Origin: a virus
Lineage: Duplodnaviria; Heunggongvirae; Uroviricota; Caudoviricetes
Virus record (IMG/VR): IMGVR_UViG_2872158770_000006
Reading direction: 5' to 3' (one strand)
Length of the DNA: 39,775 nucleotides
This document shows, in pieces, positions 2,213 to 39,444 of this stretch (the first letter of the stretch is position 1; the number at the start of each line of letters is the position of its first letter). Under the pieces are notes generated by a model, which saw nothing but the letters and a program-made list of their open reading frames with translations, searched no databases and was not told where the DNA came from. The position numbers and the translations under genes are program-made.

Positions 2213-2214
2213 AG

Positions 2215-4576: not shown

Positions 4577-4611
4577 TCGAACAATGGCGACAACAATTTC
4601 CCATTGAAGCG

Positions 4612-5845: not shown

Positions 5846-5856
5846 AGGGCGTTGTG

Positions 5857-6209: not shown

Positions 6210-6295
6210 CCGCGCAAATAAGACCCCAGGTTAAATAAGAAAATGTGAAAACAATCCGCATTCGCGGAGGTATTCGCACACGCCAAGGAGGCGTA

Positions 6296-15738: not shown

Positions 15739-15892
15739 TGCTCCCCCTGAGTAATTACAGGAAGATTACCCGCGCGCGAAACCGTTCTCCTTAACCCCCT
15801 GTTCTGGCCGTTTTCTTACAACAAAAGCCCTTTGTATCAGCCTGTTACGCTTTGCCATCATGACTGAAGAACCAGTCAGAGGGGCAAAAACT

Positions 15893-20739: not shown

Positions 20740-20824
20740 CGCCGATAAGCGGGCCATTGAATTACTGGAACAGCGCAGGCTGCAACGACTGAACAACGAG
20801 GACAACAACCATGCTGAAAACTGA
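20504..20824 (+). CDS. lysC: LysC-like outer-membrane lipoprotein spanin component (Rz1-like), embedded in and overlapping lysB
   Basis: Lipobox LLSGC after a hydrophobic segment; Pro-rich mature region; alternative reading frame overlapping the lysB 3' end. Confidence 0.5.
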   Translation: MNSYATISRQMHVPALFLTLALLSGCTSTQNASAPPPSFRFIPEGLTAPVLPPPFPVTPSWGNIGIWSDSLMDALETCNADKRAIELLEQRRLQRLNNEDNNHAEN

Positions 20825-24255: not shown

Positions 24256-26226
24256 ATGAGTACCACAACACGAAAATTTAAAACCATTATCACCGATACG
24301 GGTGCAAAAAAATTAGCGCAGGCAACCGCGCCAGATGGGAAACCTGTCCGCCTGACACATATGGCCGTGGGTGACGGCGGCGGTACTTTACCCACGCCAG
24401 ACAGTAAGCAGACCCGTCTTGTGCATGAGGTGTGGCGACATACCGTTAATCGCGTCACCCTGGACGCAACACATCAGAACCACATTATTGCGGAGCTGGT
24501 TATTCCTCCTGAAACGGGCGGATTCTGGATCCGGGAAATTGGTGTGTTTGATGAGCACGGCGATTTGATCGCGGTAGGCAATACTGCCGAAAGTTACAAG
24601 CCAACCGTTGCCGAAGGATCCGGACGTGCACAAACATTTCGCACCATTCTGACCGTATCCAGCACTGCCACTGTGGCGCTTACCGTGGATAACACCATGG
24701 TGATGGCCACAGTGAATTACGTGGATGACAAACTGAAAGAGCATGAACAGTCACGACGTCACCCGGACGCCTCGCTGACCGCAAAAGGCCTTGTCCAGCT
24801 CAGCAACACCACCAACAGCACGTCTGAAACGCTGGCAGCGACACCAAAAGCCGTTAAGGCAGTAATGGATGAAACGAACAAGAAAGCCCCATTAAACAGC
24901 CCGGCACTGACCGGAACGCCAACAACACCAACTGCGCGACAGGGAACGAATAATACCCAAATCGCAAGCACGGCTTTCGTTATGGCTGCGATTGCCGCAC
25001 TTGTAGACTCTTCGCCTGATGCACTGAACACACTGAACGAGCTGGCGGCGGCGCTGGGCAACGACCCGAATTTTGCGACCACCATGACTAACGCGCTTGC
25101 GGGTAAGCAACCGAAAGATGCCACTCTGACGGCGCTGGCGGGGCTTGCTACTGCGGCAGACAGGTTTCCGTATTTTACGGGGAATGATGTCGCCAGCCTG
25201 GCAACCCTGACAAAAGTCGGGCGGGATATTCTTGCGAAATCGACCGTTGCCGCCGTTATCGAATACCTCGGTTTACAGGAAACGGTAAATCAGGCTTCTG
25301 GCGCATTACAGAAAAACCAGAACGGCGCAGATATTCCGGGGAAAGATACCTTCACCAAAAATATTGGTGCCTGCCGCGCATATAGCTCATGGCTGAATAT
25401 TGGTGGCGATAGTCAGGTCTGGACAACCGCGCAATTTATTTCGTGGCTGGAGAGTCAGGGAGCATTTAACCATCCTTACTGGATGTGCAAAGGCTCATGG
25501 GCTTATGCAAATAATAAGGTCATTACAGATACAGGTTGCGGAAATATTTGTCTTGCAGGTGCTGTGGTGGAAGTTATTGGCACTCGCGGCGCAATGACCA
25601 TACGCGTTACCACGCCGAGCACGTCCAGCGGTGGCGGAATTACTAACGCTCAATTCACTTATATTAATCATGGTGATGCTTACGCTCCTGGCTGGCGACG
25701 AGACTACAACACGAAAAATCAACAACCTGCATTTGCTTTAGGGCAAACAGGAAGCACTGTCGGAAATGATAAAGCTGTTGGCTGGAACTGGAATAGCGGG
25801 GTCTATAACGCAAACATTGGTGGCGCATCGACATTAATCCTCCACTTCAATATGAATACGGGGAGCTGCCCTGCTGTACAGTTCCGCGTGAATTACAGGA
25901 ACGGCGGTATTTTTTATCGTTCAGCGCGTGATGGTTATGGCTTTGAAGCTGACTGGTCAGAGTTTTACACCACAACCCGCAAACCCTCTGCGGGAGATGT
26001 TGGTGCATATACGCAGGCAGAATGTAACTCAAGGTTTATTACAGGTATTCGCCTTGGTGGTCTGTTATCTGTTCAGACATGGAATGGTCCCGGATGGTCT
26101 GACAGGTCAGGTTATGTTGTTACCGGTTCCGTTAACTCAAACAGAGATGAACTAATTGATACAACTCAGGCAAGGCCAATTCAGTATTGCATTAATGGGA
26201 CGTGGTATAACGCGGGGAGTATTTAA
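24256..26226 (+). CDS. H: Tail fibre protein (P2 gpH family): constant N-terminal part joined to a variable C-terminal part inside the invertible segment
   Basis: 656 aa; the crossover site lies in-frame at 25256-25281; C-terminus ...IQYCINGTWYNAGSI is shared with the alternative exon. Confidence 0.85.
   Translation: MSTTTRKFKTIITDTGAKKLAQATAPDGKPVRLTHMAVGDGGGTLPTPDSKQTRLVHEVWRHTVNRVTLDATHQNHIIAELVIPPETGGFWIREIGVFDEHGDLIAVGNTAESYKPTVAEGSGRAQTFRTILTVSSTATVALTVDNTMVMATVNYVDDKLKEHEQSRRHPDASLTAKGLVQLSNTTNSTSETLAATPKAVKAVMDETNKKAPLNSPALTGTPTTPTARQGTNNTQIASTAFVMAAIAALVDSSPDALNTLNELAAALGNDPNFATTMTNALAGKQPKDATLTALAGLATAADRFPYFTGNDVASLATLTKVGRDILAKSTVAAVIEYLGLQETVNQASGALQKNQNGADIPGKDTFTKNIGACRAYSSWLNIGGDSQVWTTAQFISWLESQGAFNHPYWMCKGSWAYANNKVITDTGCGNICLAGAVVEVIGTRGAMTIRVTTPSTSSGGGITNAQFTYINHGDAYAPGWRRDYNTKNQQPAFALGQTGSTVGNDKAVGWNWNSGVYNANIGGASTLILHFNMNTGSCPAVQFRVNYRNGGIFYRSARDGYGFEADWSEFYTTTRKPSAGDVGAYTQAECNSRFITGIRLGGLLSVQTWNGPGWSDRSGYVVTGSVNSNRDELIDTTQARPIQYCINGTWYNAGSI
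25256..25281. repeat. Left recombination site (gix/hix-like) for the serine invertase, inside the fibre gene
   Basis: TTATCGAATACCTCGGTTTACAGGAA; inverted repeat of the site at 28331-28356; matches the remembered gix/hix consensus TTATC.AAACC.CGGTTTACAGGAA. Confidence 0.75.
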
Positions 26227-26228
26227 CG

Positions 26229-26762
26229 ATGATGCACTTAAAAAACATTTCTGCTGGTAATCCTGAAACAAAAGAGCAATACCAGCTAACGAAACAATTT
26301 AACATCAAATGGCTTTATACAGAGGATGGGAAAAACTGGTATGAGGAACAAAAGAACTTTCAGCCTGATACGTTGAAAATGGTCTATGACCACAACGGCG
26401 TTATTATTTGTATTGAAAAGGATGTTTCAGCAATTAATCCGGAAGGCGCAAGCGTCGTTGAGGTTCCTGATATTACAGCAAATCGCCGGGCTGATATTTC
26501 AGGTAAATGGATGTTCAAAGATGGCGTAGTGATAAAGCGAACTTATACCGGGGAAGAGCAGAGGCAACAAGCGGAAAATGAAAAGCAAAGCCTGCTACAG
26601 CTCGTCAGGGATAAAACCCAGCTATGGGACTCACAGCTACGGCTGGGCATTATTTCCGACGAGAATAAACAAAAATTAACCGAGTGGATGCTCTATGCGC
26701 AGAAGGTCGAATCCACAGACACCTCCAGCCTGCCAGTAACGTTTCCCGAACAACCAGAATGA
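26229..26762 (+). CDS. G: Tail fibre assembly chaperone, P2 gpG family
   Basis: 177 aa, MMHLKNISAGNPETKEQYQL...; paralogous to the minus-strand copy at 26791-27318. Confidence 0.8.
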   Translation: MMHLKNISAGNPETKEQYQLTKQFNIKWLYTEDGKNWYEEQKNFQPDTLKMVYDHNGVIICIEKDVSAINPEGASVVEVPDITANRRADISGKWMFKDGVVIKRTYTGEEQRQQAENEKQSLLQLVRDKTQLWDSQLRLGIISDENKQKLTEWMLYAQKVESTDTSSLPVTFPEQPE

Positions 26763-26765
26763 AAC

Positions 26766-26790
26766 AAGGCCCGATATCGGGCCTTAATTT
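26766..26790. terminator. Bidirectional terminator between convergent G and G'
   Basis: Hairpin AAGGCCCGATATCGGGCCTT flanked by T-rich sequence on both strands. Confidence 0.6.
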
Positions 26791-27318
26791 TTACTCAGGC
26801 TTTTGTGGCCATTCTGGCTTTGCCGTATCCACACGGCTGACCAGAACACTGTAGCGTTCCCATGCTTCCAGTCGTGTGCGTTCCTCGTCCGTCGCCATAT
26901 TCAGCCTGACAGCGCGTTCCAGCGGCTGGATGACTGATTCAGCTTCGGAAAGCAATGCGGCCTTTTGTGATTCGGCCTGTTGTTGCTGTTCGTCAGCCGT
27001 ATAAATCCGTTTAACCACAGCTCCGTCCTTAAACATCCACTTACCGGAATCATCAGCACGACGATTAGCTGTAATATCAGGAACCTCAACGACGCTATAA
27101 CCTTCAGGGTTAAGCGTGGAGGCATCTTTGGTGATGGCGACAATAATATTATTTGCATCGTAAACAATCTTTATTGTGTCTGGCTGAAAGTTCTTCACTT
27201 CCTCATACCAGTTTTTTCCGTCCTCAGAGTAAAGCCAGATGACTCCGTGCTTCTTTGTTAACTCATACTGCTCCACTGTTTTAGCATTACCTGCTTTTAT
27301 GTTCTTTAAGTGCATCAT
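26791..27318 (-). CDS. Alternative tail fibre assembly chaperone (G'), expressed after inversion
   Basis: [20 protein letters not shown]... closely parallels G; lies inside the invertible segment on the opposite strand. Confidence 0.75.
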
Positions 27319-27319
27319 A

Positions 27320-28330
27320 TTAAATACTCGCCACATTATACCAAGTGCCATTTATATACTTTTGCACTGGCCTGTAATGAACGCCTGCAATATTATCGGC
27401 AGAGTTTTTTCCGGTATCCTGTACGTTAATCCCCGTCAGTACATAGCCTGACGGGCACTGAAAATTCCATGTTTGCCAGTTGTTCACTCCATAATATTGC
27501 TGTGAACCAAGTCGAACATCTTTCACATATCTGGAATCAAAATTGCCATAGTTGCCGGGAATAACTTGCGAGCCGCAAAGCCAGTTCCCGTTATTATCCA
27601 TGTACGCCTGACCATCGGTGCCATTGGCTGTCCTTGAGTTATTAATCATGTAGATGCCAAATTGCTTATTTCCCAGACCGCCAATCATAAATTTGCGGTC
27701 GGCATGGTCCTGACGGAGCAAAGCCTGAGCACCATCAGTGGATACCGCATTACGTCCCAAAATAACATTCTGGTCACGCATATGAATCCACATGCCGGTA
27801 CTACTGTTAATTGCAAAACGGTTTGCAAATATATCCCCTGTAACATCAAGACCATGCCCCATGCTTATCCGGCCAGTTCTGAGATTAAGCGTAAAGGGGC
27901 GTAGTGGCCCTATATTACCATTTTCCCCTTCATTCTCTCGTGTAGGGATGATATGCAGGCATTCTTCAGAACGACGAAAAATGGCACCAAAAGATGAATT
28001 AAATATCCTCAGTGCATTGACTGTCGATATTTTCACTTCACTGCTGAAAAGGGCTTCAACAAGAACAGACAAAGCATTCCATTTAAGATTCATCAGGTCT
28101 TTAGGCCGGGTGCCAATGATGCGGTGTCTCCATTTGAAATATTCATTGCCGTTGTTGCCTGTTTCAAACCACATGTAGGAATCGGTGTCTGCATCCGAAT
28201 TATTTTTAAACCCAATCTTTGCCCAGTCAGTATTTCGAATCCAGGCAAGGATTGAGTCGTTTTCAAAAGTAAGTCCACCGGACAACGTATCGCCATTTTT
28301 TTGCACGGCGTTACCAGCCTTGTTTACCGT
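27320..28330 (-). CDS. Promoterless alternative tail-fibre C-terminal segment (Hv'); becomes fused in-frame to the constant part after inversion
   Basis: Open frame runs from the right crossover site without its own start context; reading frame through the site matches the fibre gene frame (…[22 protein letters not shown]…); C-terminus …[12 protein letters not shown] parallels the resident variable end. Confidence 0.7.
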
Positions 28331-28356
28331 TTCCTGTAAACCGAGGTTTTAGATAA
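28331..28356. repeat. Right recombination site (gix/hix-like)
   Basis: TTCCTGTAAACCGAGGTTTTAGATAA, a near-exact match to the remembered gix/hix consensus, 55 bp upstream of the invertase start. Confidence 0.8.
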
Positions 28357-28410
28357 TGGCCGTTTCCGGCCTGCATGGCATGATTTGCGCTTTTGGACGG
28401 GAGATTCAGC

Positions 28411-28998
28411 GTGCTGATTGGCTATGTAAGGGTATCAACAAATGACCAGAATACAGACCTGCAACGAAACGCTCTTGTTTGTGCAGGATGTGAACAAATA
28501 TTTGAAGATAAATTAAGCGGGACAAAGACAGACCGACCGGGATTAAAACGCGCTTTAAAGCGCCTTCAAAAAGGTGACACGCTGGTTGTCTGGAAACTGG
28601 ATCGCCTCGGGCGAAGCATGAAACATCTGATTTCTCTCGTCGGGGAACTACGGGAGCGAGGAATTAATTTTCGCAGTCTGACCGACAGCATAGATACATC
28701 TTCTCCAATGGGGCGTTTTTTCTTCCACGTGATGGGTGCCCTGGCTGAAATGGAACGTGAATTAATTGTTGAACGTACACTGGCCGGACTGGCGGCAGCA
28801 CGCGCACGGGGGCGCACAGGCGGACGTCGACCGAAGCTGACAAAAGAACAGCATGAGCAAATAGCAAGGCTGATCAAAAACGGGCACGACAGAAAACAAC
28901 TGGCAATAATTTACGGCATTGGTATATCGACGATTTATCGTTACCACCCCGCAGGAGAATCAATCGGAACAATAGAGAAGAGTCAGGAAACAAAATAA
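28411..28998 (+). CDS. Serine DNA invertase of the Gin/Hin/Cin/Pin family
   Basis: GTG start; MLIGYVRVSTNDQNTDLQRNAL... with catalytic Ser in YVRVST; near-identical to remembered Mu Gin over the first roughly 140 aa; C-terminal HTH. Confidence 0.9.
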   Translation: MLIGYVRVSTNDQNTDLQRNALVCAGCEQIFEDKLSGTKTDRPGLKRALKRLQKGDTLVVWKLDRLGRSMKHLISLVGELRERGINFRSLTDSIDTSSPMGRFFFHVMGALAEMERELIVERTLAGLAAARARGRTGGRRPKLTKEQHEQIARLIKNGHDRKQLAIIYGIGISTIYRYHPAGESIGTIEKSQETK

Positions 28999-29030
28999 CC
29001 GCTAATCTGACCATTAGCGGTTTTTGTGTT
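28999..29030. terminator. Bidirectional rho-independent terminator between the invertase (+) and U (-)
   Basis: Stem CCGCTAAT/ATTAGCGG with loop CTGACC, followed by TTTTTGTGTT on the plus strand and TTATTTTGTTT on the minus strand. Confidence 0.6.
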
Positions 29031-29033
29031 AAA

Positions 29034-29528
29034 TCAGAACAACCCTTTAACTGAACTGGCCGCGCTGTTAAGGGATGATGTTACCTTATCTTTGAAGCCG
29101 GACAGCATATCGCTGAACGATGAGGATTGCAGGCGCTCCCGCAAATCCTCATCACAGCGTTCAAGAGTCAGTGAAAATTCTATCTTTTTCGCCTTACCGT
29201 AGCGATCAAACTCGGAGCGGGTCGTATTCGTTTCGGTCAGGACATACATGCCGTAAATCTGCCCGACGCCATCAATCAGAGGCCAGGGTCGTCCTGTATA
29301 CGCCTGCGTGGTCAGCAGCGACAGCGACACTTCGCCACCTGTAATTTCAGGATAAAGCACACCAGAAAGAACGATGCGCTCATCACCTGCACCGATATAC
29401 TGCCAGCTTGCCGAACGGTTAACGCGTTCATTTTTCACATGCCGCCAGCTTTTGTTTTGCTGTAACTGCTGATGCGGCAATGTACGCAGCTCAAAAACAA
29501 ACATGCCGTAGATCATCATCATGGCCAT
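29034..29528 (-). CDS. U: Tail protein, P2 gpU family
   Basis: 164 aa; SWRH, TGG, LIDG and SEF segments align with remembered P2 gpU. Confidence 0.8.
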   Translation of the reverse strand: MAMMMIYGMFVFELRTLPHQQLQQNKSWRHVKNERVNRSASWQYIGAGDERIVLSGVLYPEITGGEVSLSLLTTQAYTGRPWPLIDGVGQIYGMYVLTETNTTRSEFDRYGKAKKIEFSLTLERCDEDLRERLQSSSFSDMLSGFKDKVTSSLNSAASSVKGLF

Positions 29529-29534
29529 GACTCC

Positions 29535-32378
29535 TCAATCTTTATCGTAAAAACTGCCACGCCCGGCACGGGCGCGCCGTTCCATTTCTGCCCTGACCAT
29601 TTCACCGACCAGTTTCGCCAGTTCGCGGGGATTCTGCGTAACAACGTTATGCAGATGAACATGAATTTCACCACCAAATCCGGAGGCAACAGGCTCCCGG
29701 TTACGGGAAGTTACAGGAACTGATGCCACTGGAGAGCGTATGGCCTCCGCCACCGGGCGGGAGCTGGCCGCAACAACAGGGACCAGCGCCGGAGGCAGCG
29801 GAGCCGGGACCACGGGTGTGATATTAATTGCGGGGGCAGGCTTACTGACCTGCGCAATCTTCCGCTCCTGCCACTCCCCACGAACAGCAAGTGCGCGGGG
29901 CAGGTTCTTAAAGACAATATCGCCGGGGCCAATGCGTTTTTTCGTCTCATCAACCAGCTTACCTGTGTTATCAGCAATTTTGCTGAGTCTGCGTAGCGTC
30001 CCGGTATTGCTGTCTGTGAGCGGTTTGTTGTCTTTGGGTTTATCACCTCCGGTGCCATTGCCATTTTCCACAGGCTTCGGCGGATTGATTTTCGCCAGGT
30101 CCCCCTGAAGCAAGGCAACCTTGTCCTGAAGAATGGCCGCACGCTGTGCGTCTTCGATTTTCTTGCGCGCCCTTTCCGCTTCATCCGGAAGGACGCCAAG
30201 TTTTTCAAGTATCCACGCCAGCGTATCCAGTAGCATTTTTGCAGGTGTCAGAACAAGTTGTAACGCACCGCCAAGAACGTTACCGAATATCTCGCCAGCA
30301 CTGGCACATTTATCCAGCGTTTCCTTGCTGGACTCCATCGGTGACAGCAGCGATTTAAACCAGTTAAAGACCTGAATAATCCCATCGCGCACGACATCAA
30401 AAACAGGGCCAAACCGTTCAAAGGTTTCGCGCAACGGGGTCAGCCTTTCCATAATCCCGCTGAACACCCCGGCAAAAAATGCCCTGATGGGATCCCAGTA
30501 TTTCCAGATAAGAACGGCAGCTCCGGCAAGCGCAGCCACGATAAGACTAACCGGACTGAACAGCGCCCCGATAGCGCCACCAAGTAAAGAAACGGAACCC
30601 GTCACCATTCCCCATAATGCAGGCAGAACCCTGACAACATTCATTGATTCGGTCAGGAGAGAAAAACCGAGACGCAACGTAGCCAGCTTCCCGTGAAGCA
30701 CCCCAATAACCAGAGACAACGAACCAACCGTTGCTGTTGTCGCCAGCAGTGCGCCTCCCGCTATCAGTAACTGGCGCGTCAGTGCCGGGTGGGCCTGCGC
30801 CAGCGCCGTCACCTTTGAGACAACCCGCGTGAGCCACTGCGTGACAGAACGCAGCGGACCGTCAACCAGATCACTGATGCGAATACGCAGACCTTCCCAT
30901 GCACTGCCGAGTGATTTCAGGTTGCCATCAAGGTTATTGGCCATAACCTTTGCCGTGCGTTCTGCCTCACCGCGCGCGCCTTCAAGTTCTTTTCTCAGTT
31001 TGGCTAAGAAGCCGTCACCTGCCGCATCAACGAGGCCCATAAATGATGTGAAAGCCTCTTCTCCGGCAATGTCCTTAAAGAACGATACCCGGTCAACCTC
31101 CCCGTATTTGCGGGTGGCTTTATAGAGATCGGCCAGCACATTCTCCATCGGGCGCATTTTGCCTTTGGCGTCAGCAACTGACACCCCCAGCTCTTTCAGT
31201 GCTTCTGCCGCTGCCTTTGGCGGTGATGACAGATTGGCCAGGCTTTTACGCAACGCTGTACCTGCATCACTCCCCCTGATACCCATCTTCGCCAGCACGC
31301 CCGCCATCGCTGCGGCCTGCTCCAGCGATATTCCCAGCTTACCCGCCACCGGACCTGCATATTTCATGGTTTCGCCCAGTGCGCGAAGGTCAGTGTTGGT
31401 ACGGGTAAACGCTGCGGTAAGTGTGTCACCGACCCGGTCCATCTGGTCAGCAGAGAGGCCGAACTGCGTCAGGATATTGGAACCAATATCCGCCGTCTCG
31501 CCGAGGTCCATACCGCCAGCCGTTGCCATGCTCAGCACGCCGGGAAGCGCAGCCTGAATGGCCTGCGGTGTGAAACCAGCCATTGCAAGAAATGCCTGTC
31601 CACTGGCGGCATCGCCTGCGGTGAACTGCGTTTCAGAGCCAAGTTTTAACGCCTGCTCACGCAGCGCCTTAAACTGCGGGCTGTTTTTATCGATTCGCGT
31701 CAGTGCCTGAACACGGGACATCTCTTTCCCGAACCCGATAGCGGGCTGCAAAAAACGCCCGGCAGCATAGCCGCCCGCTGCCGCCGCACCTGTTGCCAGC
31801 GCACCACCTGTTTTCAGTTTTCCCGCTGTTTCCTGCGCGCGTGAATACCGCTCACGCGCCTGCGTTACACGCGCAAGCGCCCGCCGTTCGCGTTCAAGCT
31901 GGTTGTTGTATTGTCCGGTGCGTCTGATGGCCTGCTGGATGGTGTTATCGCTGCCTGTCAGGGAAATGCCGTGGCGTTTCAGCTCTCCGCCAAGTTCCCG
32001 CATTTTCTGAATTTCCCGTGTGCGCGATTCATTCAGGCGTTCAAGCCGGGTGCTTAACTGCTGCATCAGCTTTTGTTGTTTTTCGCTGAGCACTGTACCC
32101 GTGCGTTGTAACTGATTAAGGGCGTTAAGCTGGCGTCGTGCTTTCACGATGCCCGCATCCGCTTTACTGACAGCGTCACGGGCGCGCTCAAATGAACGCG
32201 CCTGACGCTCGAGATTTTTGATCGCCCCCTGCGTTCGCTGGATGGAGTCACCAAACTGCCCCATCAGGCGGCGGGCGTTTTCGGCAGGCCGGGTCAGCCT
32301 GTCAACGGCGCTGAAAGCGACCCGGATATCAAGAGTCTTCATTGTCTGCATTCCCGCTGCGAAGTGCCGCCCGCTCAC
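29535..32378 (-). CDS. T: Tail tape measure protein, P2 gpT family
   Basis: 947 aa, N-terminal coiled coil, central Ala/Gly-rich hydrophobic stretches; typical tape-measure composition and position. Confidence 0.85.
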   Translation of the reverse strand: MSGRHFAAGMQTMKTLDIRVAFSAVDRLTRPAENARRLMGQFGDSIQRTQGAIKNLERQARSFERARDAVSKADAGIVKARRQLNALNQLQRTGTVLSEKQQKLMQQLSTRLERLNESRTREIQKMRELGGELKRHGISLTGSDNTIQQAIRRTGQYNNQLERERRALARVTQARERYSRAQETAGKLKTGGALATGAAAAGGYAAGRFLQPAIGFGKEMSRVQALTRIDKNSPQFKALREQALKLGSETQFTAGDAASGQAFLAMAGFTPQAIQAALPGVLSMATAGGMDLGETADIGSNILTQFGLSADQMDRVGDTLTAAFTRTNTDLRALGETMKYAGPVAGKLGISLEQAAAMAGVLAKMGIRGSDAGTALRKSLANLSSPPKAAAEALKELGVSVADAKGKMRPMENVLADLYKATRKYGEVDRVSFFKDIAGEEAFTSFMGLVDAAGDGFLAKLRKELEGARGEAERTAKVMANNLDGNLKSLGSAWEGLRIRISDLVDGPLRSVTQWLTRVVSKVTALAQAHPALTRQLLIAGGALLATTATVGSLSLVIGVLHGKLATLRLGFSLLTESMNVVRVLPALWGMVTGSVSLLGGAIGALFSPVSLIVAALAGAAVLIWKYWDPIRAFFAGVFSGIMERLTPLRETFERFGPVFDVVRDGIIQVFNWFKSLLSPMESSKETLDKCASAGEIFGNVLGGALQLVLTPAKMLLDTLAWILEKLGVLPDEAERARKKIEDAQRAAILQDKVALLQGDLAKINPPKPVENGNGTGGDKPKDNKPLTDSNTGTLRRLSKIADNTGKLVDETKKRIGPGDIVFKNLPRALAVRGEWQERKIAQVSKPAPAINITPVVPAPLPPALVPVVAASSRPVAEAIRSPVASVPVTSRNREPVASGFGGEIHVHLHNVVTQNPRELAKLVGEMVRAEMERRARAGRGSFYDKD

Positions 32379-32858
32379 GCCAGCTAACCACTTCGCCGGG
32401 CGTCATCATGAAGATTTCGGCGGGCGACCAGTTAAAAATGGCGGCAATATCCGCCACAAAGTCTTCTATGTGCTCAAAGCACACAACCGTGATCAGGCTT
32501 CCGTCGCCTGTTCGTTCTTCTCGCCAGAGTCCGCACCGCTCAAAAAATTTACGGCAACCACACATAACTGAATAAAGTCACGGGATGCCATTTTTTTGAT
32601 CGTCACTTCATCCAGTCGCGGTGATGTCACGCGTGACAGCAGCGTAAACATGGATTCCGCTTTCAAATTCAGCACATCAGACAGCGACAAATCTCGCAGA
32701 GATCCAGCCTGCTCAATAGCCCCGGTGATCTCCACATACGTGATTTTTTCGCCGCCTCGCTCAATTGGTTGGGTAAGTTTTACGCCACGCTCACTGGTTT
32801 CTTTCACAGTGTCAGCAACGACCGTGTTTTCGGTATCGATGTTTTTCGTCTCTTTCAT
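32329..32858 (-). CDS. E: Tail assembly chaperones E and E+E' (programmed -1 frameshift); E alone is 32493-32858
   Basis: Slippery heptamer T_TTT_TTG (minus strand, complement of 32541-32547) 16 codons before the E stop; the -1 frame continues as ...FFERCGLWREERTGDG... to 32329, overlapping the T start. Confidence 0.75.
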
Positions 32859-32912
32859 CAGGAAACTCCTTTCAGTCAGAGGCGACGCACTGCGCCGCCT
32901 GCATATTACTTA

Positions 32913-33425
32913 TCAGCCAAGCCCGAGCGCGGAACGGATGCGATCGGGCACAATGTCCCTGCCGTCCTTCCGGTAAATGAAGTTCAGCAGGTCAATCTCC
33001 CACAACGGGCGATCGTTAACACTCAGCTTGTAGTAGGTGTTTTTAATGGCGTAAGTGTGTGATGTGGCTTCGCCCTGTTTGGCTTCCCCCATATCAATTT
33101 CCGTCACACGTCCGCGCATTTCGACTTCATACAGGTCGCTTTCAGCGTCGGTGTAGTATTCACCCGCAAAACGCAGCAGCGTACCGTCAATCGTGCCGCC
33201 ATACTTAAGGAACAGCTCACGAACTGCGCCCCCCATGACAAAGCTCGCATCAAGCGCGGAGTCATCCAGGCCGAGATCAATACTTACCGCTCCCATCATG
33301 CCACCACCCCGGTAGCTGTCGGTTTTGCGCGTCAGCTTAGGCAGAGTGACGGACGTCACCTTACCCACTTCGTTTTCACCATCCACAAACAGCGTAAAAA
33401 AGCGAAGATGTTTTGGTACAGCCAT
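32913..33425 (-). CDS. FII: Tail tube protein, P2 gpFII family
   Basis: 170 aa; size and position immediately downstream of the sheath gene. Confidence 0.85.
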   Translation of the reverse strand: MAVPKHLRFFTLFVDGENEVGKVTSVTLPKLTRKTDSYRGGGMMGAVSIDLGLDDSALDASFVMGGAVRELFLKYGGTIDGTLLRFAGEYYTDAESDLYEVEMRGRVTEIDMGEAKQGEATSHTYAIKNTYYKLSVNDRPLWEIDLLNFIYRKDGRDIVPDRIRSALGLG

Positions 33426-34609
33426 CAGGCACCTCCCAGCACCGCAAATGCGGGACCAAAGAATTCATCAGTAAACGACTGGTAAAGCTCCATGTCTTCC
33501 AGCGGGGGAACAGGCGTATATTTGTAGCGAATACGCACGCGCCCCTGACGTAAATTCGTGGTGCCGTTATCCACCACGTCATACCAGCACGACGCCCCAA
33601 TCAGTTTCCCGGCAGTAACCAGTGAATCCAGTTTTGCCCTGATGGCACCGATAACATCCTTCACGTTCGCAGGCGTCAGTGGACTGTCGATGGTTTCAAA
33701 CTGCGCTTCCGCAATTGAATCAGCCAGCACCTGTGCGGTTCGGGTATACACCTCAAAGATGTAGGCGTTCGTTTCCGGTGTGCGGTTGCCCCAGAAGCGG
33801 AACCCGTTGCGACGAATAATGGTCGTGATTTCTTTGTTGTTGAGGCTGTTGGCATCACTGTCTTCGGCCTGCAACGACCAGAACACATGCCTGGACATCC
33901 CCAGCACATTTTTAACCGGAACGTTGGACAGCGATTTGTGCCAGCCCTGCTCATGGTCAATGTACGCACGAAGGCCGCACGCATAGGCAGGCGCGGGGAA
34001 CGTTTCGTTTTTGCCACTTTTCGGGTTGTAGGCGATGAAGTCCGGCCATAAGAGCATCACCTCACGTTCGTTGAATTTCTGGCGGTAGGTAATTGCCTCA
34101 GCCATCGTGTTACAGTCATGACATGAGGCATACACAAACGCGCGCAGTTTACCCGCAATCACGCACAGGGATTTTGTCACCGCCTCCGTGTCCAGCTCCG
34201 GCGCGGCCAGAATACGCGGACGGTATCCGATGCTTTCATCCTGCTCTGCAACAAGCAGCGCATACATCCCCGTATAGCTGCCGTCAGATTCAGAACCACC
34301 GATAACCAGTTGATCCTGCGTTTTTCCGTCTTCTTCTTTGTGTTCAGCCACGCGAACGACGATCACCTTTGTGCTCACCTGGTCTGCGATGGCCTTAAGC
34401 GCACGATAAAGCGTCCCCGTTGTTCCGCATTTTCCCAGCACGTCATTGACGCGGGGCAGCAGTGTGGGCTTGTTCAGCGGGAACAGCTCCGCGTCCGCAT
34501 CATCCGCCGTTGCCACGATACCGATAACGCTGGAATCAACATCGTTAATCGCTGTTACCAGGTCGGTATTTTCCGTAACACGGGCACCATGAAAACGAGT
34601 TTCACTCAT
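33425..34609 (-). CDS. FI: Contractile tail sheath protein, P2 gpFI family
   Basis: 394 aa; size and position; start overlaps FII. Confidence 0.9.
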   Translation of the reverse strand: MSETRFHGARVTENTDLVTAINDVDSSVIGIVATADDADAELFPLNKPTLLPRVNDVLGKCGTTGTLYRALKAIADQVSTKVIVVRVAEHKEEDGKTQDQLVIGGSESDGSYTGMYALLVAEQDESIGYRPRILAAPELDTEAVTKSLCVIAGKLRAFVYASCHDCNTMAEAITYRQKFNEREVMLLWPDFIAYNPKSGKNETFPAPAYACGLRAYIDHEQGWHKSLSNVPVKNVLGMSRHVFWSLQAEDSDANSLNNKEITTIIRRNGFRFWGNRTPETNAYIFEVYTRTAQVLADSIAEAQFETIDSPLTPANVKDVIGAIRAKLDSLVTAGKLIGASCWYDVVDNGTTNLRQGRVRIRYKYTPVPPLEDMELYQSFTDEFFGPAFAVLGGA

Positions 34610-34766
34610 AGCTTCAACCCCTTGTATCCGTTAAATGATTCGGCAACAATCATCACCCACCACGCGCGTAATCTCACCCCTGCGCCATTCTCCCGCCACG
34701 GCGACAACAAAAAGCAGTAACCCCCTCCGCACGCACATGCGACCATGCCACACAGGGAGGGAGCAG

Positions 34767-35876
34767 ATGACCGACACCACCATGCAATTGCTCAGTCAGG
34801 GCACAGACCCCGTGAAAATGCCGGATTTTGATATTCTCGCGGAGGGTAAAACGCTGTCAGGCGTGGCAGAGCGCCTGATGAGCCTGTCACTGACCGACAA
34901 CCGGGGATTTGAGGCGGACCAGCTCACCATCACGCTGGATGATGCGGATGGTCAGTTGCAGCTACCGCCACGGGGCGCGCGCCTGACGGTTCTCATTGGC
35001 TGGAAGGGAGAACCGCTGACAGAAAAAGGCACTTACATTGTTGATGAAATCGCTCACGAAGGACCGCCGGACAGGCTGACTGTTTCAGCCAGAAGCGCAG
35101 ATTTTCGGGCTGAATTTAACGTTAAACGTGAGGTGTCCTGGCATGATGTGACCGTTGAGCGTGTGGTATCCGCCATCGCTCATCGGTATGGTCTGAAACC
35201 GCAAATCAGCGAAATGCTGATGGATATCGAAATCGACCACGCCGACCAGACCGAAGAAAGCGACATGTCCTTCCTTACGCGCATGGCGGAAATGCTGGGC
35301 GCAATCACCACGGTAAAAAGCGGTAATCTGTTATTCATCATGCCCGGTGGTGGCGTGAACGCACAGGGCCAGCCGTTGCCCTCGTTCGCCATCACACGCA
35401 GCAGCGGCGATCGCCATCAGTTCCGCATTGCTGACCGCGAAGCGTATACGGGGGTACGCGCTTACTGGCTTGATCTTAATTACGGGAAAAAGAAAAAAGT
35501 CAGCGTGAAACGCCGCAAACCGTCAAAACCAAAAAAGGAGAAAAGCAGCAGCCGGGAAGGCGACTATATGGAAGGTGCGGAAGGCAACGTGTTTGTGTTA
35601 CGCAAAACTTATCAGAACGAGCAGGCAGCAAGACGTGCAGCGGCGGCAAAGTGGCAGCAGCTACAACGCGGAGCCGCATCATTCTCCATCACACTGGCGC
35701 ATGGACGTGCAGAACTCTACCCCGAAATGCATGGCACGGTAACAGGATTTAAAAGCGAGATTGATAATCAGGACTGGATTATTGCAAAAGCCGAGCACAC
35801 CATTGATAACAGCGGCTTTACCACGCAGCTTGAGCTTGAGGCAAAAATCCCGGAATGGATAGCAGAAACAGAGTGA
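34767..35876 (+). CDS. D: Late control/tail protein D (Phage_GPD family)
   Basis: ATG at 34767 with GGGAGG RBS; LSLTDNRGFEADQLTITLDDADGQLQLPPRGARLTVLIGWKG matches the conserved GPD N-terminal region. Confidence 0.8.
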   Translation: MTDTTMQLLSQGTDPVKMPDFDILAEGKTLSGVAERLMSLSLTDNRGFEADQLTITLDDADGQLQLPPRGARLTVLIGWKGEPLTEKGTYIVDEIAHEGPPDRLTVSARSADFRAEFNVKREVSWHDVTVERVVSAIAHRYGLKPQISEMLMDIEIDHADQTEESDMSFLTRMAEMLGAITTVKSGNLLFIMPGGGVNAQGQPLPSFAITRSSGDRHQFRIADREAYTGVRAYWLDLNYGKKKKVSVKRRKPSKPKKEKSSSREGDYMEGAEGNVFVLRKTYQNEQAARRAAAAKWQQLQRGAASFSITLAHGRAELYPEMHGTVTGFKSEIDNQDWIIAKAEHTIDNSGFTTQLELEAKIPEWIAETE

Positions 35877-36116
35877 GCAACTTAAATGTATTAACTCAGA
35901 ACGGATCAACACACTCACAACATAGAGTCAATATAGCTGCTCGCTTTGTTCCAGCAAGGATGCCTATTTCTAAGGAAAAACAGAGCAGAAACATATGGTG
36001 TTTTCCTACCTGACATCAGGGGTGGTAGACTGGCCCCCTGAATCTCCAGACAACCAGTATCACTTAAATAAGTGATAGTCTTAATACTAGTTTTTAGACT
36101 AGTCATTGGAGTACAG

Positions 36117-36482
36117 ATGATTGATGTCTTAGGGCCGGAGAAACGCAGACGGCGTACCACACAGGAAAAGATCGCAATTGTTCAGCAGAGCTTTGAACCG
36201 GGGATGACGGTCTCCCTCGTTGCCCGGCAACATGGTGTAGCAGCCAGCCAGTTATTTCTCTGGCGTAAGCAATACCAGGAAGGAAGTCTTACTGCTGTGG
36301 CCGCCGGAGAACAGGTTGTTCCTGCCTCTGAACTTGCTGCCGCCATGAAGCAGATTAAAGAACTCCAGCGCCTGCTCGGCAAGAAAACGATGGAAAATGA
36401 ACTCCTCAAAGAAGCCGTTGAATATGGACGGGCAAAAAAGTGGATAGCGCACGCGCCCTTATTGCCCGGGGATGGGGAGTAA
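36117..36482 (+). CDS. insC: IS2 OrfA (InsC)
   Basis: [41 protein letters not shown]... matches the remembered IS2 InsC. Confidence 0.9.
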
Positions 36483-37345
36483 GCTTAGTCAGCCGTTGTC
36501 TCCGGGTGTCGCGTGCGCAGTTGCACGTCATTCTCAGACGAACCGATGACTGGATGGATGGCCGCCGCAGTCGTCACACTGATGATACGGATGTGCTTCT
36601 CCGTATACACCATGTTATCGGAGAGCTGCCCACGTATGGTTATCGTCGGGTATGGGCGTTGCTTCGCAGACAGGCAGAACTTGATGGTATGCCTGCGATC
36701 AATGCCAAACGTGTTTACCGGATCATGCGCCAGAATGCGCTGTTGCTTGAGCGAAAACCTGCTGTACCGCCATCGAAACGGGCACATACAGGCAGAGTGG
36801 CCGTGAAAGAAAGCAATCAGCGATGGTGCTCTGACGGGTTCGAGTTCTGCTGTGATAACGGAGAGAGACTGCGTGTCACGTTCGCGCTGGACTGCTGTGA
36901 TCGTGAGGCACTGCACTGGGCGGTGACTACCGGCGGCTTCAACAGTGAAACAGTACAGGACGTCATGCTGGGAGCGGTGGAACGCCGCTTCGGCAACGAT
37001 CTTCCGTCGTCTCCAGTGGAGTGGCTGACGGATAATGGTTCATGCTACCGGGCTAATGAAACACGCCAGTTCGCCCGGATGTTGGGACTTGAACCGAAGA
37101 ACACGGCGGTGCGGAGTCCGGAGAGTAACGGAATAGCAGAGAGCTTCGTGAAAACGATAAAGCGTGACTACATCAGTATCATGCCCAAACCAGACGGGTT
37201 AACGGCAGCAAAGAACCTTGCAGAGGCGTTCGAGCATTATAACGAATGGCATCCGCATAGTGCGCTGGGTTATCGCTCGCCACGGGAATATCTGCGGCAG
37301 CGGGCTTGTAATGGGTTAAGTGATAACAGATGTCTGGAAATATAG
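36440..37345 (+). CDS. insD: IS2 transposase OrfB (InsD), DDE domain
   Basis: 301-aa ORF matching the remembered IS2 InsD; overlaps insC in the -1 frame. Confidence 0.9.
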
Positions 37346-37437
37346 GGGCAAATCCAGGTGGTAAGAATCATGCTTTGATAACCAATTGATAACTATTATT
37401 ATATTAATCTAACACCATTGACATAGTTGAGGTTTGA

Positions 37438-38940
37438 ATGAACAAAAAGCTGTATTTATTCCCAGACTCAAACATTTTTCTACAATGCAAGGACTTGACG
37501 CAGGTAAATTTTTCCGAGATTACTGCTTGTGATGAAGTATGTATCATTATTACAAGGCCCATTCAGCAAGAGATTGACCGCCAGAAAGGGCAAGGTAATT
37601 CCCGCCTATCCAAAAAAGCAAGGAAGGCTGCTAGCCTATTTAATCAAGTAGTTGATTCAACTGACATGACTCTTGTTATTCGTGAACGCTCGCCGCGAGT
37701 TTTTCTTACCATGGATCTAAGCCTGAAACCATGTGAACAGTTATCTGAACAATTGGATTATCAGGAGGCCGACGATCGTTTTGTTGGTATTGCGGCAGGG
37801 TATTGCGCTGACGATCCAGATTCGGAGGTGGCAATCATTACCAATGATAGCGGTCCACGTTTTTCAGCAATAAAACATAATATAATCTGCTATAAAGTGC
37901 CTTCTTCATGGTTGCTTCCTGCTGAGCCAGATGAAAAGGATAAACAAATTAAATTGCTGGAAGCTAAGCTGAAGCAATTCACTCAGTCTATGCCCGATTT
38001 CAGCATTAAAGTAGCCGATGACGAGCAATTAAATATTGTACTTCCTTATTATACAGCTTTATCTGAATATGAAGTTGATAATTTGCTTTGTCAACTAACG
38101 GATGCATTCCCATTGGTTACAAACTTTGACAATGAACAAACTACCCCACAATCACTAGAAAAAATCATCAAGTCATTTAGTCAACAGGAGTATTTCCCTG
38201 TATCAGCAGATGATATTTCTCTTTATAAAGAAAAACATTATCCACTTTGGAAAAAGCAGTGTGAAGAAATACTGAAAAACTGTCATACTCATATTAATCC
38301 GAAGGCAATAAATTACCCGCTGTCGTTTTTATTACAAAACACAGGTTATACTATCGCTGAACGTGCTGTGGTAACATTTACAGCAAAAGGAGATTTTCGT
38401 CTGTGTGGATTTAATTGGGAGATAATGGAAGAGCTGACTGAAAGCAAAAGGATTGACCTACCTTCAGCCCCTACCGCCCCCAAAGGAAAATGGCGTAGTG
38501 TATGTGGCGTAACAGAAAGAATGCCTTACGCTGGGGGAGCTTTGGAAACACCGCTATCCAGTATAATTTCAAAAGAAATTGGTCCTTTGTTATCTCTTAC
38601 TCCAACAGAAAGGGATAAAAACGATTTTTATTATAAAGAAAAGAGAAATGAGCCAGTTCAAGTTGTATCGCTGGAATGCGAAGAGTGGCGTCATCAAGTC
38701 AAAGAAGAAATATTCCCGTTGTTCGTATATACAGCCAACAAACCAAAGAAAGTGAATGGTGCAATTGAGGTGAGAGTTGATGCAAATAACCTTACCAATC
38801 CGGTCATTAAAACATTTAAATTAAAAATAACTATAGAAGAACATAGTGCATTTTCAACCATAACAGAAATGGTGCAGACATACATTCAAGAGCAGAAGAA
38901 AAGACAGAAAAGTTCTATTAGCGCACAAATCAAAACATGA
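37438..38940 (+). CDS. AT-rich 500-aa cargo protein with predicted N-terminal PIN-like nuclease domain and uncharacterised C-terminal region
   Basis: ATG with GAGG RBS; N-terminus LYLFPDSNIFL…(V)CIIITRPIQQEIDRQ…DDRFVGIAAGY…AIITNDSG gives the spacing of four acidic residues (D10, E45, D112/113, D137) typical of PIN-fold nucleases; markedly lower GC than flanking tail genes by eye. Confidence 0.6.
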   Translation: MNKKLYLFPDSNIFLQCKDLTQVNFSEITACDEVCIIITRPIQQEIDRQKGQGNSRLSKKARKAASLFNQVVDSTDMTLVIRERSPRVFLTMDLSLKPCEQLSEQLDYQEADDRFVGIAAGYCADDPDSEVAIITNDSGPRFSAIKHNIICYKVPSSWLLPAEPDEKDKQIKLLEAKLKQFTQSMPDFSIKVADDEQLNIVLPYYTALSEYEVDNLLCQLTDAFPLVTNFDNEQTTPQSLEKIIKSFSQQEYFPVSADDISLYKEKHYPLWKKQCEEILKNCHTHINPKAINYPLSFLLQNTGYTIAERAVVTFTAKGDFRLCGFNWEIMEELTESKRIDLPSAPTAPKGKWRSVCGVTERMPYAGGALETPLSSIISKEIGPLLSLTPTERDKNDFYYKEKRNEPVQVVSLECEEWRHQVKEEIFPLFVYTANKPKKVNGAIEVRVDANNLTNPVIKTFKLKITIEEHSAFSTITEMVQTYIQEQKKRQKSSISAQIKT

Positions 38941-39183: not shown

Positions 39184-39444
39184 ATGTTCCGTTGTCCGCT
39201 TTGTGGCGCATCTGCCCGTATCCGCACCAGTCGTCCGGAAAATGATTCAAACACCGTGCGGCAAAAGTATTACCAGTGTAACAATCTGGAATGCGGCGTA
39301 TGCTTCTCAACACTGGAAGCTTTCCATAAATTCACATCAAAACACGCCTCCGGCGTTCACTCTTCAGAAGATATCCCGTGGCATGATCTGCCAGCTTCAC
39401 ACAGGGGAAACAATCAGATGAGCTTGCCTTTACCTCAGAATTAA
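39184..39444 (+). CDS. ogr: Ogr/Delta-family zinc-finger late transcription activator
   Basis: MFRCPLCGASARIRTSR...YYQCNNLECGVCFSTLEAF parallels P2 Ogr (MFHCPLC...RTSR...YHQCQNVNCSATFIT.E); GGGAGG RBS. Confidence 0.8.
   Translation: MFRCPLCGASARIRTSRPENDSNTVRQKYYQCNNLECGVCFSTLEAFHKFTSKHASGVHSSEDIPWHDLPASHRGNNQMSLPLPQN

What the first reader, a model, noticed from the sequence alone, without database searches (positions are those of the whole stretch)
28999..34766. Tail block FI-FII-E/E'-T-U is inverted relative to D and to the baseplate/fibre genes
In P2 and 186 the F operon (FI FII E E' T U D) is co-directional with V-W-J-I-H-G and D is its last gene. Here FI to U is on the minus strand, convergent with the invertase across a bidirectional terminator, while D is on the plus strand and diverges from FI across a 157-bp spacer. 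This uncouples D from the F promoter and implies a roughly 5.6-kb inversion, possibly mediated by the resident serine invertase acting on a pseudo-site or by IS activity, or a lineage-specific rearrangement.
Basis: partly seen in the sequence, partly recalled or inferred. Interest (0 to 1): 0.55.

Follow-up and report, generated by a model that had tools for sequence, protein, structure and literature searches.

The report
Tail operon orientation normal for P88-like phages
The tail genes FI to U do run opposite to gene D, but this is the fixed, normal layout of P88-like (Xuanwuvirus) relatives of phage P2, found in about a quarter of complete E. coli genomes, and D probably keeps late expression by sharing the tail operon's activator site.

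Summary
FI, FII, E/E', T and U lie on the minus strand (29034-34609). They converge on the invertase gene across a two-way hairpin terminator (28997-29022). They diverge from D (ATG 34767) across a 157-bp spacer.

The proposed causes are not supported. This is not a recent or ongoing inversion. All 101 related loci in which both genes could be placed (about 14 enterobacterial genera, many without an invertase) have the same layout. So do 1358 of 5426 complete E. coli genomes and the plaque-forming phage P88. P2, 186 and Fels-2, which has an invertase, keep the co-directional layout. There are no gix-like sites or IS ends at the junctions. A near-identical prophage has the real invertible fibre segment (25256-28356) flipped and the tail block unchanged.

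The spacer carries one T(C/G)T-N12-ACA dyad, the Ogr-site type. A -10-like hexamer lies 34 nt (in two lineages 35) away on each side, in ten diverged lineages. This geometry matches the mapped P2 pP/pO two-way late promoter. D therefore probably has its own late promoter that shares the F activator site. That step is inferred, not shown. The finding is ordinary and of low interest.

The parts
25256..25281 (.). Left gix-like crossover site of the real invertible tail-fibre (G-type) segment. Context and positive control only.
   Evidence: This is the 26-bp inverted partner (24/26) of 28331-28356, within the 65-nt inverted repeat I3. The segment is flipped in the near-identical prophage L027.
28331..28356 (.). 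Right gix-like crossover site, TTCCTGTAAACCGAGGTTTTAGATAA.
28393..28998 (+). Serine DNA invertase of the Gin/Cin/Pin type. The probable start is GTG at 28411.
   Evidence: PHROG 125 'DNA invertase', E = 1e-96. It is 99% identical to the P88 invertase.
28997..29022 (.). Two-way intrinsic terminator hairpin shared by the converging invertase and U genes.
   Evidence: Detected on both strands. Folds at -15.7 and -16.1 kcal/mol, z = -4.1 and -3.7.
29034..29528 (-). gpU-like tail protein, the last gene of the inverted operon.
   Evidence: PHROG 76, E = 8e-75. 47% identical to P2 U.
29535..32378 (-). gpT tape measure protein. The probable ATG start is at 32342.
   Evidence: PHROG 28, E = 5e-212. The P88 homologue is 2808 bp.
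32329..32858 (-). E and E' tail chaperone pair. E is 32493-32858. The slippery T_TTT_TTG site is at 32541-32547. The -1 frame E' is open to 32329.
   Evidence: PHROG 103. Sequence read. P88 annotates both ORFs.
32913..33425 (-). gpFII tail tube.
   Evidence: PHROG 55, E = 2e-59.
33425..34609 (-). gpFI tail sheath, the first gene of the inverted operon.
   Evidence: PHROG 23, E = 4e-124.
34649..34654 (-). Predicted -10 hexamer of the F promoter (GATGAT on the minus strand). Predicted start of transcription is near 34642.
   Evidence: It lies exactly 34 nt from the dyad. A -10-like hexamer sits at this offset in 10 of 10 diverged lineages. The same spacing rule reproduces the mapped P2 start sites.
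34689..34706 (.). Single TCT-N12-ACA dyad, the predicted shared Ogr-type activator site, centred on 34697.5.
   Evidence: The dyad form is T(C/G)T-N12-ACA in 100 of 101 loci, with one CCT variant. It is a perfect TGT-N12-ACA in four lineages. TTGT-N12-AGAA also occurs at the P/O spacer of this window. The P2 consensus is cited from PMC3931495.
34741..34746 (+). Predicted -10 hexamer of a D promoter (GACCAT, preceded by TGc). Predicted start is near 34753, 14 nt before the ATG and just ahead of the SD at 34755-34763.
   Evidence: It lies 34 nt from the dyad. A -10-like hexamer is present at 34 nt in 8 of 10 lineages and at 35 nt in 2 of 10, and almost nowhere else. The spacing is kept in L025 despite a leader about 100 nt longer.
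34767..35876 (+). gpD (baseplate hub, 'late control D'), transcribed away from FI.
   Evidence: PHROG 52, E = 1e-166. 99% identical to P88 D and 50% to P2 D.
39184..39444 (+). Ogr/Delta-type zinc-finger late activator. Here it is separated from D by an IS2 and a cargo gene.
   Evidence: Pfam PF04606, E = 5e-14.

Best explanation
**Shown.**
- The window holds a P88-like (Xuanwuvirus) prophage, a relative of P2.
- The opposite orientation of FI-FII-E/E'-T-U relative to D and to V-W-J-I-H is the inherited, fixed genome plan of a whole clade of Peduoviridae.
- That clade includes Xuanwuvirus, Novemvirus, Senquatrovirus and related Klebsiella, Serratia, Erwinia and Pantoea prophages.
- It is not an event in this prophage and not a switch.

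**Inferred: the ancestral event.**
- The inversion carried the F promoter and its activator site along with the operon.
- Its two ends fell just after the U stop and just beyond the distal (TGT/ACA) half of the activator site.

**Inferred: how D is now expressed.**
- The Ogr-type site is a dyad that works from about -55.
- A -10 element placed 34 nt on its other side turns it into a two-way late promoter.
- RNA polymerase would then start near 34642 leftward for FI...U and near 34753 rightward for D (and onward toward ogr), 111 bp apart.
- Both starts would depend on one bound activator, as at the mapped pP/pO pair of P2.
- D would therefore stay a late, Ogr-dependent gene, although it has lost translational coupling to U.

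**The invertase.** It acts only on the fibre segment 25256-28356.
For: **Layout is clade-wide.**
- tblastn of the window's tail proteins on 106 loci was used. All 101 in which both FI and D could be placed (D at 64% identity or more) show J+ I+ ... U- T- E- FII- FI- D+ ogr+. The other four D-bearing loci are fragments without FI.
- These comprise 80 IMG/VR contigs and 22 GTDB genomes from about 14 genera. Many have no invertase in the flank.
- P2, 186 and Fels-2 are co-directional.
- In phage records, every one checked with D at 62% or more and FI at 55% or more is divergent. Those at 53% or less are co-directional.
- The FI-D junction is intact in 1358 of 5426 complete E. coli genomes.

**Functional phages have it.** P88 has the same layout. 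It is inducible, forms plaques and has normal virions (PMC5285337).

**No switching.** L027 is the same prophage at 99.5% identity. Its G segment is flipped and its FI-U block is unchanged.

**Promoter architecture.**
- The spacer is 145-157 bp in all lineages apart from L025, where a longer D leader extends it.
- Ten lineages average 46% spacer identity. They keep one T(C/G)T-N12-ACA dyad with -10-like hexamers at offset 34 on both sides.
- On the F side this holds in 10 of 10. On the D side it holds in 8 of 10, plus 2 at offset 35. Other offsets score near zero.
- The P2 record annotates one shared activator site for pP and pO, with starts 111 bp apart.
- The rule 'site + 34 nt + hexamer + 7 nt' reproduces both P2 starts exactly, and pF within 1-3 nt.
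- The window's own P/O spacer has the same motif and spacing.
- An Ogr/Delta protein is encoded.
- The sigma-70 scan finds no promoter with a -35 in the spacer.
Against: - There are no transcript data. The D promoter and its dependence on Ogr rest on sequence geometry and analogy.
- In this window, and in most E. coli copies, the F-proximal half of the dyad is TCT rather than TGT.
- The exact TGT-N12-ACA search found nothing at any late promoter of this window.
- The predicted D leader is short, about 10-15 nt.
- The lineages compared share ancestry. Part of the positional conservation could therefore be inheritance without selection, although spacer identity is only about 46%.
- No paper in the held library describes this layout or promoter. 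The literature therefore cannot confirm the reading.
Confidence: 0.75

Rival explanations
1. The block was inverted recently, or is still invertible, in this prophage. The resident serine invertase would have acted on pseudo-gix sites at 28999-29033 and 34610-34766.
For: - An active-looking invertase gene abuts the block.
- The best gix-like match in the spacer scores 16/26, which only 0.04% of window positions reach.
- One IMG/VR contig, L102, has a different secondary inversion that starts next to its invertase gene.
Against: - The 16/26 match lies at the FI start codon, not at an inversion endpoint. About 0.15 such hits are expected in the roughly 400 positions searched, and it is not conserved in other lineages.
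- The left junction scores 14/26, which is background.
- The orientation is the same in all 101 loci and in 1358 genomes.
- Relatives without an invertase share the layout.
- Fels-2 has an invertase and keeps the P2 layout.
- L027 shows that the invertase flips only 25256-28356.
- The L102 junctions carry no gix-like sequence.
Confidence: 0.02
2. The inversion was made by IS elements in this prophage, by recombination between inverted IS copies or by transposition.
For: The window carries two IS copies: an IS3-like element at about 4211-5470 and an IS2 at about 36028-37356. Related phages carry IS100 in T.
Against: - Neither IS touches a junction.
- The left junction is only a 35-bp terminator. 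The right one is a promoter spacer whose architecture and length are conserved across genera.
- The IS2 is missing from L027, which has the same block orientation.
Confidence: 0.01
3. The layout is the fixed clade arrangement, but D is not driven from the shared Ogr site. It would use an independent promoter, either constitutive or controlled differently, or a start elsewhere. The symmetric geometry would then be coincidental.
For: - The D-side hexamers are weak (GACCAT, GATCCT).
- Most carry a TG two bases upstream, as in activator-independent 'extended -10' promoters.
- The half-site on the F side is degenerate (TCT).
Against: - The 34/35-nt offset from the dyad is kept in 10 of 10 lineages despite about 46% identity.
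- It is also kept in L025, where the leader is about 100 nt longer, so the hexamer tracks the dyad and not the ATG.
- The geometry is identical to the mapped P2 pP/pO pair.
- There is no -35 match.
Confidence: 0.2
4. The orientation is an assembly error in the source sequence.
For: None found.
Against: The same junctions occur in complete genomes and in independently sequenced phage genomes.
Confidence: 0.005

Closest known systems
Escherichia phage P88 and Xuanwuvirus P88_4B11 (Peduoviridae, genus Xuanwuvirus)
   Same: - The order and strands are identical: invertase(+), U T E' E FII FI(-), D(+), then ogr.
- Proteins of the tail block are 96-99% identical, and E is 76-97% identical.
- The spacer is also 157 bp.
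- Identity times coverage against P88 is about 80% over the prophage once the IS copies are excluded.
   Different: - The window copy has an IS3-like and an IS2 insertion.
- It carries a PIN-domain cargo gene between D and ogr.
- R and S are fused into one ORF.
- The fibre segment is a different variant.
P2 pP/pO divergent late promoter pair, with one shared Ogr activator site
   Same: - One dyad is centred 55.5 bp from each of two outward starts that lie 111 bp apart.
- The spacing from site to -10 is 34 nt on both sides.
- There is no -35 element.
- PMC3931495 reports the same site sharing for PP'/PO' of phage Smp131.
   Different: - Here the geometry lies between FI and D, a position where P2 has a one-way promoter. 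The P2 pF site has no -10-like hexamer on its other side.
- The starts in the window are predicted, not mapped.
F operon of P2 (FI FII E E' T U D) and J operon of 186
   Same: The gene set, the internal order, the E/E' frameshift and an upstream activator site about 90 bp before FI are all the same.
   Different: - D is not in the operon.
- The U stop no longer overlaps the D start.
- The block faces the other way.
- The first 12-18 residues of D do not align with P2 D or between lineages.
Invertible tail-fibre segments of Mu (G/Gin), P1 and P7 (C/Cin) and Fels-2
   Same: The window has such a segment at 25256-28356, with 26-bp inverted crossover sites and alternative fibre and chaperone genes. 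It is about 90% identical to Mu, P1 and P7.
   Different: The FI-U block is not part of it and has no such sites.
Stenotrophomonas phage Smp131, a P2-like phage with rearranged late operons
   Same: It is a precedent for P2-like lineages that have redistributed tail genes among late operons while keeping TGT-N12-ACA-type promoters (PMC3931495).
   Different: The rearrangement is a different one: V moved, and FI-U was not inverted.

Membership tests
Genus Xuanwuvirus (P88-like Peduoviridae) | Nucleotide similarity to P88 across the genome above the 70% used by ICTV to delimit genera (criterion from my own knowledge). | tested here: met
   blastn identity times coverage is 0.80 over 2215-39500 excluding the two IS copies, and 0.74 including them. 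This is a rough proxy for the VIRIDIC-type measure.
Genus Xuanwuvirus (P88-like Peduoviridae) | Same gene order and strands in the tail region. | tested here: met
P2-type Ogr/Delta-dependent late promoter | TGT-N12-ACA dyad centred near -55. | tested here: inconclusive
   The window has TCT-N12-ACA at 34689-34706, centred 55.5 bp from both predicted starts. Four of ten lineages have a perfect TGT-N12-ACA. The mapped P2 sites are themselves imperfect (TGT-N12-CCA). The exact consensus has no hit at late promoters of this window.
P2-type Ogr/Delta-dependent late promoter | A -10-like hexamer at fixed distance from the site, without a -35 match. | tested here: met
   The offset is 34 nt on both sides and is conserved. 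No sigma-70 site with a -35 lies in the spacer.
P2-type Ogr/Delta-dependent late promoter | A cognate Ogr/Delta zinc-finger activator is encoded by the phage. | tested here: met
   ORF 39184-39444 matches Pfam PF04606 at E = 5e-14. Its motif is CX2C...CX4C, with 24 rather than 22 residues between the cysteine pairs.
P2-type Ogr/Delta-dependent late promoter | Transcription starts at the predicted sites and requires the activator. | not testable with these tools
   This needs 5'-end mapping and reporter assays.
Gin/Cin/Pin/Hin-type invertible segment, considered for the FI-U block | Inverted 26-bp crossover sites at both ends of the segment. | tested here: not met
   The best scores at the junctions are 14/26 and 16/26, within background. 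The real sites match each other 24/26. No long inverted repeat brackets the block.
Gin/Cin/Pin/Hin-type invertible segment, considered for the FI-U block | Both orientations occur among closely related copies. | tested here: not met
   Only one orientation is seen in 101 loci and 1358 genomes. The G segment is seen in both orientations, which serves as the positive control.
IS-mediated inversion | IS copies, IS ends or target duplications at the junctions. | tested here: not met
   The junctions are a 35-bp terminator and a promoter spacer of conserved architecture. The IS copies lie at 4211-5470 and 36028-37356.
P2/186 F operon as a single unit ending in D | D is co-directional with U and immediately follows it. 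| tested here: not met
   D is on the opposite strand and next to FI. In P2, 186 and Fels-2, U overlaps D.

The most novel reading that the evidence does not exclude
The FI-D spacer is a second two-way Ogr-dependent late promoter, created when an ancestral inversion carried the F promoter's dyad activator site next to D. This would be a worked example of how a symmetric upstream activator site lets an operon be split and inverted without loss of temporal control. I found no description of it in the papers searched.
Probability: 0.6. Interest if true: 0.3.

Novelty: already known. Interest (0 to 1): 0.2.

Why it matters
**For annotation.** This layout should not be flagged as a rearrangement or a sign of prophage decay. 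It is the standard plan of a very common E. coli prophage group.

**For phage biology.** The modest point of interest is regulatory. The clade appears to have re-used the dyad activator site of the F promoter in both directions. This copies the pP/pO solution of P2, so D stays a late gene after being cut out of its operon.

If confirmed, the 157-bp spacer would be a compact natural two-way activator-dependent promoter. It would also be a useful marker for separating this clade from P2-, 186- and Fels-2-type phages.

Tried and rejected
1. **Exact consensus search.** An exact search for TGT-N12-ACA gave 4 hits against 10.6 expected. None lies at a late promoter. The site in this clade is degenerate on one half, and I found it by comparing the window's P/O and FI/D spacers.

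2. **A wrong recollection.** I recalled that Fels-2 and SopE-phi share the inverted block. The Fels-2 record shows the P2 layout.

3. **gix-like scan.** A scan of the whole window found nothing above background at the junctions.

4. **Sigma-70 scan.** It found no promoter in the spacer on the D strand. One weak minus-strand match inside D (34860-34833) was ignored because the region has fewer matches than its shuffles.

5. **Literature.** I searched for an explicit description of the inversion or of a two-way F/D promoter. Sources were the P88, SEN4/5, P2-diversity and P2 defence-hotspot papers, and the terms Xuanwuvirus and Ogr/bidirectional. None mentions it. Two searches failed on term length.

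6. **Contig L102.** I examined it as a possible invertase-made inversion. Its junctions inside T carry no gix-like sequence, so the cause remains unknown.

7. **tRNA/tmRNA scan.** It found none in the window.

8. **PADLOC scan of the PIN-domain cargo protein.** No match.
Full report
**What is in the window.**

The window holds a P2-like prophage lying beside a FecCD-family transporter gene (1-981).
- It starts with an integrase (2215-3342) and a repressor.
- An early region follows, with a gpA-type replication gene (7255-10077) and a ParM-like gene.
- Then come Q and P on the minus strand, followed by O N M L, lysis genes, R/S and V W J I H on the plus strand.
- Next are an invertible fibre segment, an invertase, the tail block in question, D, and an Ogr/Delta gene at 39184-39444.
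- By blastn it is about 80% similar (identity times coverage, IS copies excluded) to Escherichia phage P88, the type of genus Xuanwuvirus.

**Check of the observation.**

- FI (33425-34609), FII (32913-33425), E (32493-32858), T (29535-32342/32378) and U (29034-29528) are on the minus strand.
- E carries a T_TTT_TTG slippery site at 32541-32547, and the -1 frame E' is open to 32329.
- D starts at ATG 34767 behind the Shine-Dalgarno sequence (SD) GGGAGGGAG, which leaves a 157-bp spacer.
- The 35 bp between the invertase stop and the U stop hold a 10-bp-stem hairpin with T-runs on both strands. It folds at about -16 kcal/mol on either strand, z about -4.
- P2 and 186 have FI...U-D co-directional with V...G, with the U stop overlapping the D start.

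**Is it an event in this prophage, or the plan of a lineage?**

I collected 102 loci encoding D relatives, 22 from one-genome-per-species GTDB contigs and 80 from IMG/VR. I then placed the window's tail proteins on them with tblastn.
- All 101 loci in which both FI and D could be placed show J+ I+ ... U- T- E- FII- FI- D+ ogr+. The remaining four D-bearing loci are fragments without FI.
- They include prophages of Salmonella, Edwardsiella, Kluyvera, Erwinia, Enterobacter, Mixta, Pantoea, Kosakonia, Citrobacter, Izhakiella, Brenneria, Klebsiella, Rouxiella and Trabulsiella.
- Their D and FI proteins are only 59-82% identical to the window's.
- Many have no invertase gene between the fibre genes and U.

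Phage records give the same split.
- P88, P88_4B11, SEN4/5 (Senquatrovirus), phiT5282H (Novemvirus) and Klebsiella phages with D near 70% identity all have the divergent layout.
- The next-nearest phages (D at 53% or less, for example Yersinia vB_YenM_42.18 and Klebsiella ST437-OXA245phi4.1), together with P2, 186 and Fels-2, are co-directional.
- Fels-2 matters most here. It has the same kind of invertase in the same place and still keeps the P2 orientation.

Two further results bear on this.
- Among 5426 complete E. coli genomes, 1358 contain the FI-spacer-D junction intact.
- P88 is a working phage. It is induced by mitomycin C, forms plaques and gives normal virions in EM (PMC5285337).

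**Tests of the proposed mechanisms.**

*Invertase.*
- The real crossover sites are at 25256-25281 and 28331-28356. They match each other 24/26 and resemble gix.
- Scoring every 26-mer of the window against them gives 14/26 at the invertase-U junction. That score is reached by 0.4% of positions.
- In the spacer the best is 16/26, but at the FI start codon rather than at an endpoint. It lies in sequence that other lineages do not share, and about 0.15 such hits are expected in the roughly 400 positions examined.
- L027, an IMG/VR contig 99.5% identical in the flanks, has 25250-28360 in the opposite orientation and the FI-U block unchanged. This is a direct positive control for what the invertase does and does not flip.

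*IS activity.*
- The window's IS3-like element (about 4211-5470) and IS2 (about 36028-37356) are far from the junctions.
- The IS2 is absent from L027.
- The junctions leave no room for IS remnants.
- In E. coli genomes without this invertase cassette, similarity stops at about 29028, just outside the U stop. The left junction is therefore a boundary for exchange of fibre modules, whereas the right junction is constant.

**How D is expressed.**

The spacer length is almost constant, at 145-157 bp across all lineages apart from L025, where a longer D leader extends it.

I aligned ten lineages without gaps on a common ACAA motif. Mean pairwise identity was 46%. Three conserved features stand out:
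1. A dyad T(C/G)T-N12-ACA. In the window it is at 34689-34706, and in four lineages it is a perfect TGT-N12-ACA.
2. A -10-like hexamer exactly 34 nt to its left, read on the minus strand (GATGAT, GATTAT and similar).
3. A -10-like hexamer 34 nt to its right, read on the plus strand (GACCAT, GATCCT, AATCAT and similar). It is usually preceded by TG.

I also ran an unbiased profile over offsets 10-51, counting hexamers with A2, T6 and at least 3 of 6 matches to TATAAT.
- At offset 34 the count is 10 of 10 on the F side and 8 of 10 on the D side.
- The other two D-side hexamers are at offset 35.
- Counts at other offsets are near zero.
- In L025 the D leader is about 100 nt longer, yet the hexamer stays 34 nt from the dyad. 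It therefore tracks the dyad and not the start codon.

**Comparison with the mapped P2 promoters.**

TGT-N12-ACA is the published consensus of the Ogr-dependent late promoters of P2 (PMC3931495, citing Christie and Calendar 1985 and Julien and Calendar 1995).
- The P2 RefSeq record annotates a single 'activator binding site; pO, pP promoters' at 3057-3087. The pP start is at 3016 (minus) and the pO start at 3127 (plus), 111 bp apart.
- Applying 'site + 34 nt + hexamer + 7 nt' to the P2 sequence returns exactly those two starts. It returns the pF start within 1-3 nt.
- The far side of the one-way P2 pF site has no -10-like hexamer.
- The same rule in the window predicts starts at about 34642 for FI and about 34753 for D, again 111 bp apart.
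- The window's own P/O spacer has TCT-N12-ACA at 15803-15820, with TAATCT 34 nt to the left and CATCAT 35 nt to the right.
- That second hexamer overlaps the first ATG of the O ORF. The real O start is probably the ATG at 15893, which has an SD and aligns with the N-terminus of P2 gpO as I recall it.

**Reading.**

I read the FI-D spacer as a second pP/pO-type two-way late promoter.
- The polarity fits an inversion that carried pF along. In the FI direction the strong TGT half-site is distal, as at P2 pF.
- The first 12-18 residues of D do not align between lineages or with P2 D. This fits a rebuilt 5' end.
- All of this is inference from sequence. No transcript evidence was available.

**Comparison with known systems.**

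The layout itself is documented in public records of P88, P88_4B11, SEN4/5 and phiT5282H.
- I found no paper in the held library that comments on it or on a shared F/D promoter.
- It works like the P2 pP/pO pair.
- It is not a member of the invertible-segment class or of IS-made inversions. The defining features were tested and not met.
- Other P2-like lineages with redistributed late operons are known, for example Smp131 (PMC3931495).

**Verdict.**

- The feature is ordinary for a very common prophage group.
- The one modestly new point is the inferred shared activator site, which is testable with simple reporter and 5'-end experiments.
- Interest is 0.2.

Noticed in passing
window 36028-37356: An IS2 (InsC/InsD-type ORFs at 36072-36482 and 36440-37345) is inserted between D and the downstream cargo gene. 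It is absent from the otherwise identical IMG/VR contig L027.
   Followed up: yes
window about 4211-5470: An IS3-like element (ORFs 4274-4576 and 4612-5430, rve domains) interrupts the early-region gene that corresponds to P88 gp04 (DUF4761 family). The prophage may be impaired in its early functions.
   Followed up: partly
window 20811-21905: R and S (tail completion) form one 364-aa ORF here. In P88 they are two overlapping genes, and the difference is a frame change at the R/S overlap (...DVTWGKAMDKAF... against ...DVTWGESDG* plus MDKAF...). This could be a defect or a tolerated fusion.
   Followed up: partly
window 37438-38940: A low-GC (about 36%) 500-aa ORF with only an N-terminal PIN_4 domain (Pfam, E = 4.5e-8) lies between D and ogr, where relatives carry variable cargo. 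It has no PADLOC match, so it is possibly an uncharacterised defence or accessory gene.
   Followed up: partly
window 25256-28356, and L027 486-3596: This is a Gin/Cin-type invertible tail-fibre segment with alternative fibre tips and chaperones. It is seen in opposite orientations in near-identical prophages and is about 90% identical to the Mu G and P1/P7 C segments.
   Followed up: yes
L102 (IMGVR_UViG_2654587728_000014) 428-6247: In one related contig, the stretch from the invertase through U to the 3' part of T (window 28417-31018) is inverted relative to the rest of T, which splits the tape-measure gene. The junctions have no gix-like sequence, and the cause is unknown.
   Followed up: partly
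window 15860-15895: The first ATG of the O (scaffold) ORF at 15860 overlaps the predicted pO -10 element. The ATG at 15893, with an SD at about 15879-15885, gives MANEKK... and is the likelier start.
   Followed up: partly
window 34589-34720 (P88 33155-33286): P88 and PGAP annotate a small 'hypothetical protein' across the FI-D spacer. It overlaps the FI start and the predicted promoter and activator site, the spacer is only about 46% identical between lineages, and it is probably not a gene. In addition, the D reading frame is open upstream to an ATG at 34635, which is unlikely to be used.
   Followed up: no
window 10154-11113: A ParM-like actin-type segregation ATPase lies in the early region, as in P88. 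This hints at a plasmid-like partition function in this phage group.
   Followed up: no
window 1174-2212: Two minus-strand ORFs (184 and 166 aa) lie between the host FecCD-type gene and the integrase. The first is coiled-coil-like with only weak PADLOC and Pfam hits. They are possibly cargo next to the attachment site.
   Followed up: no
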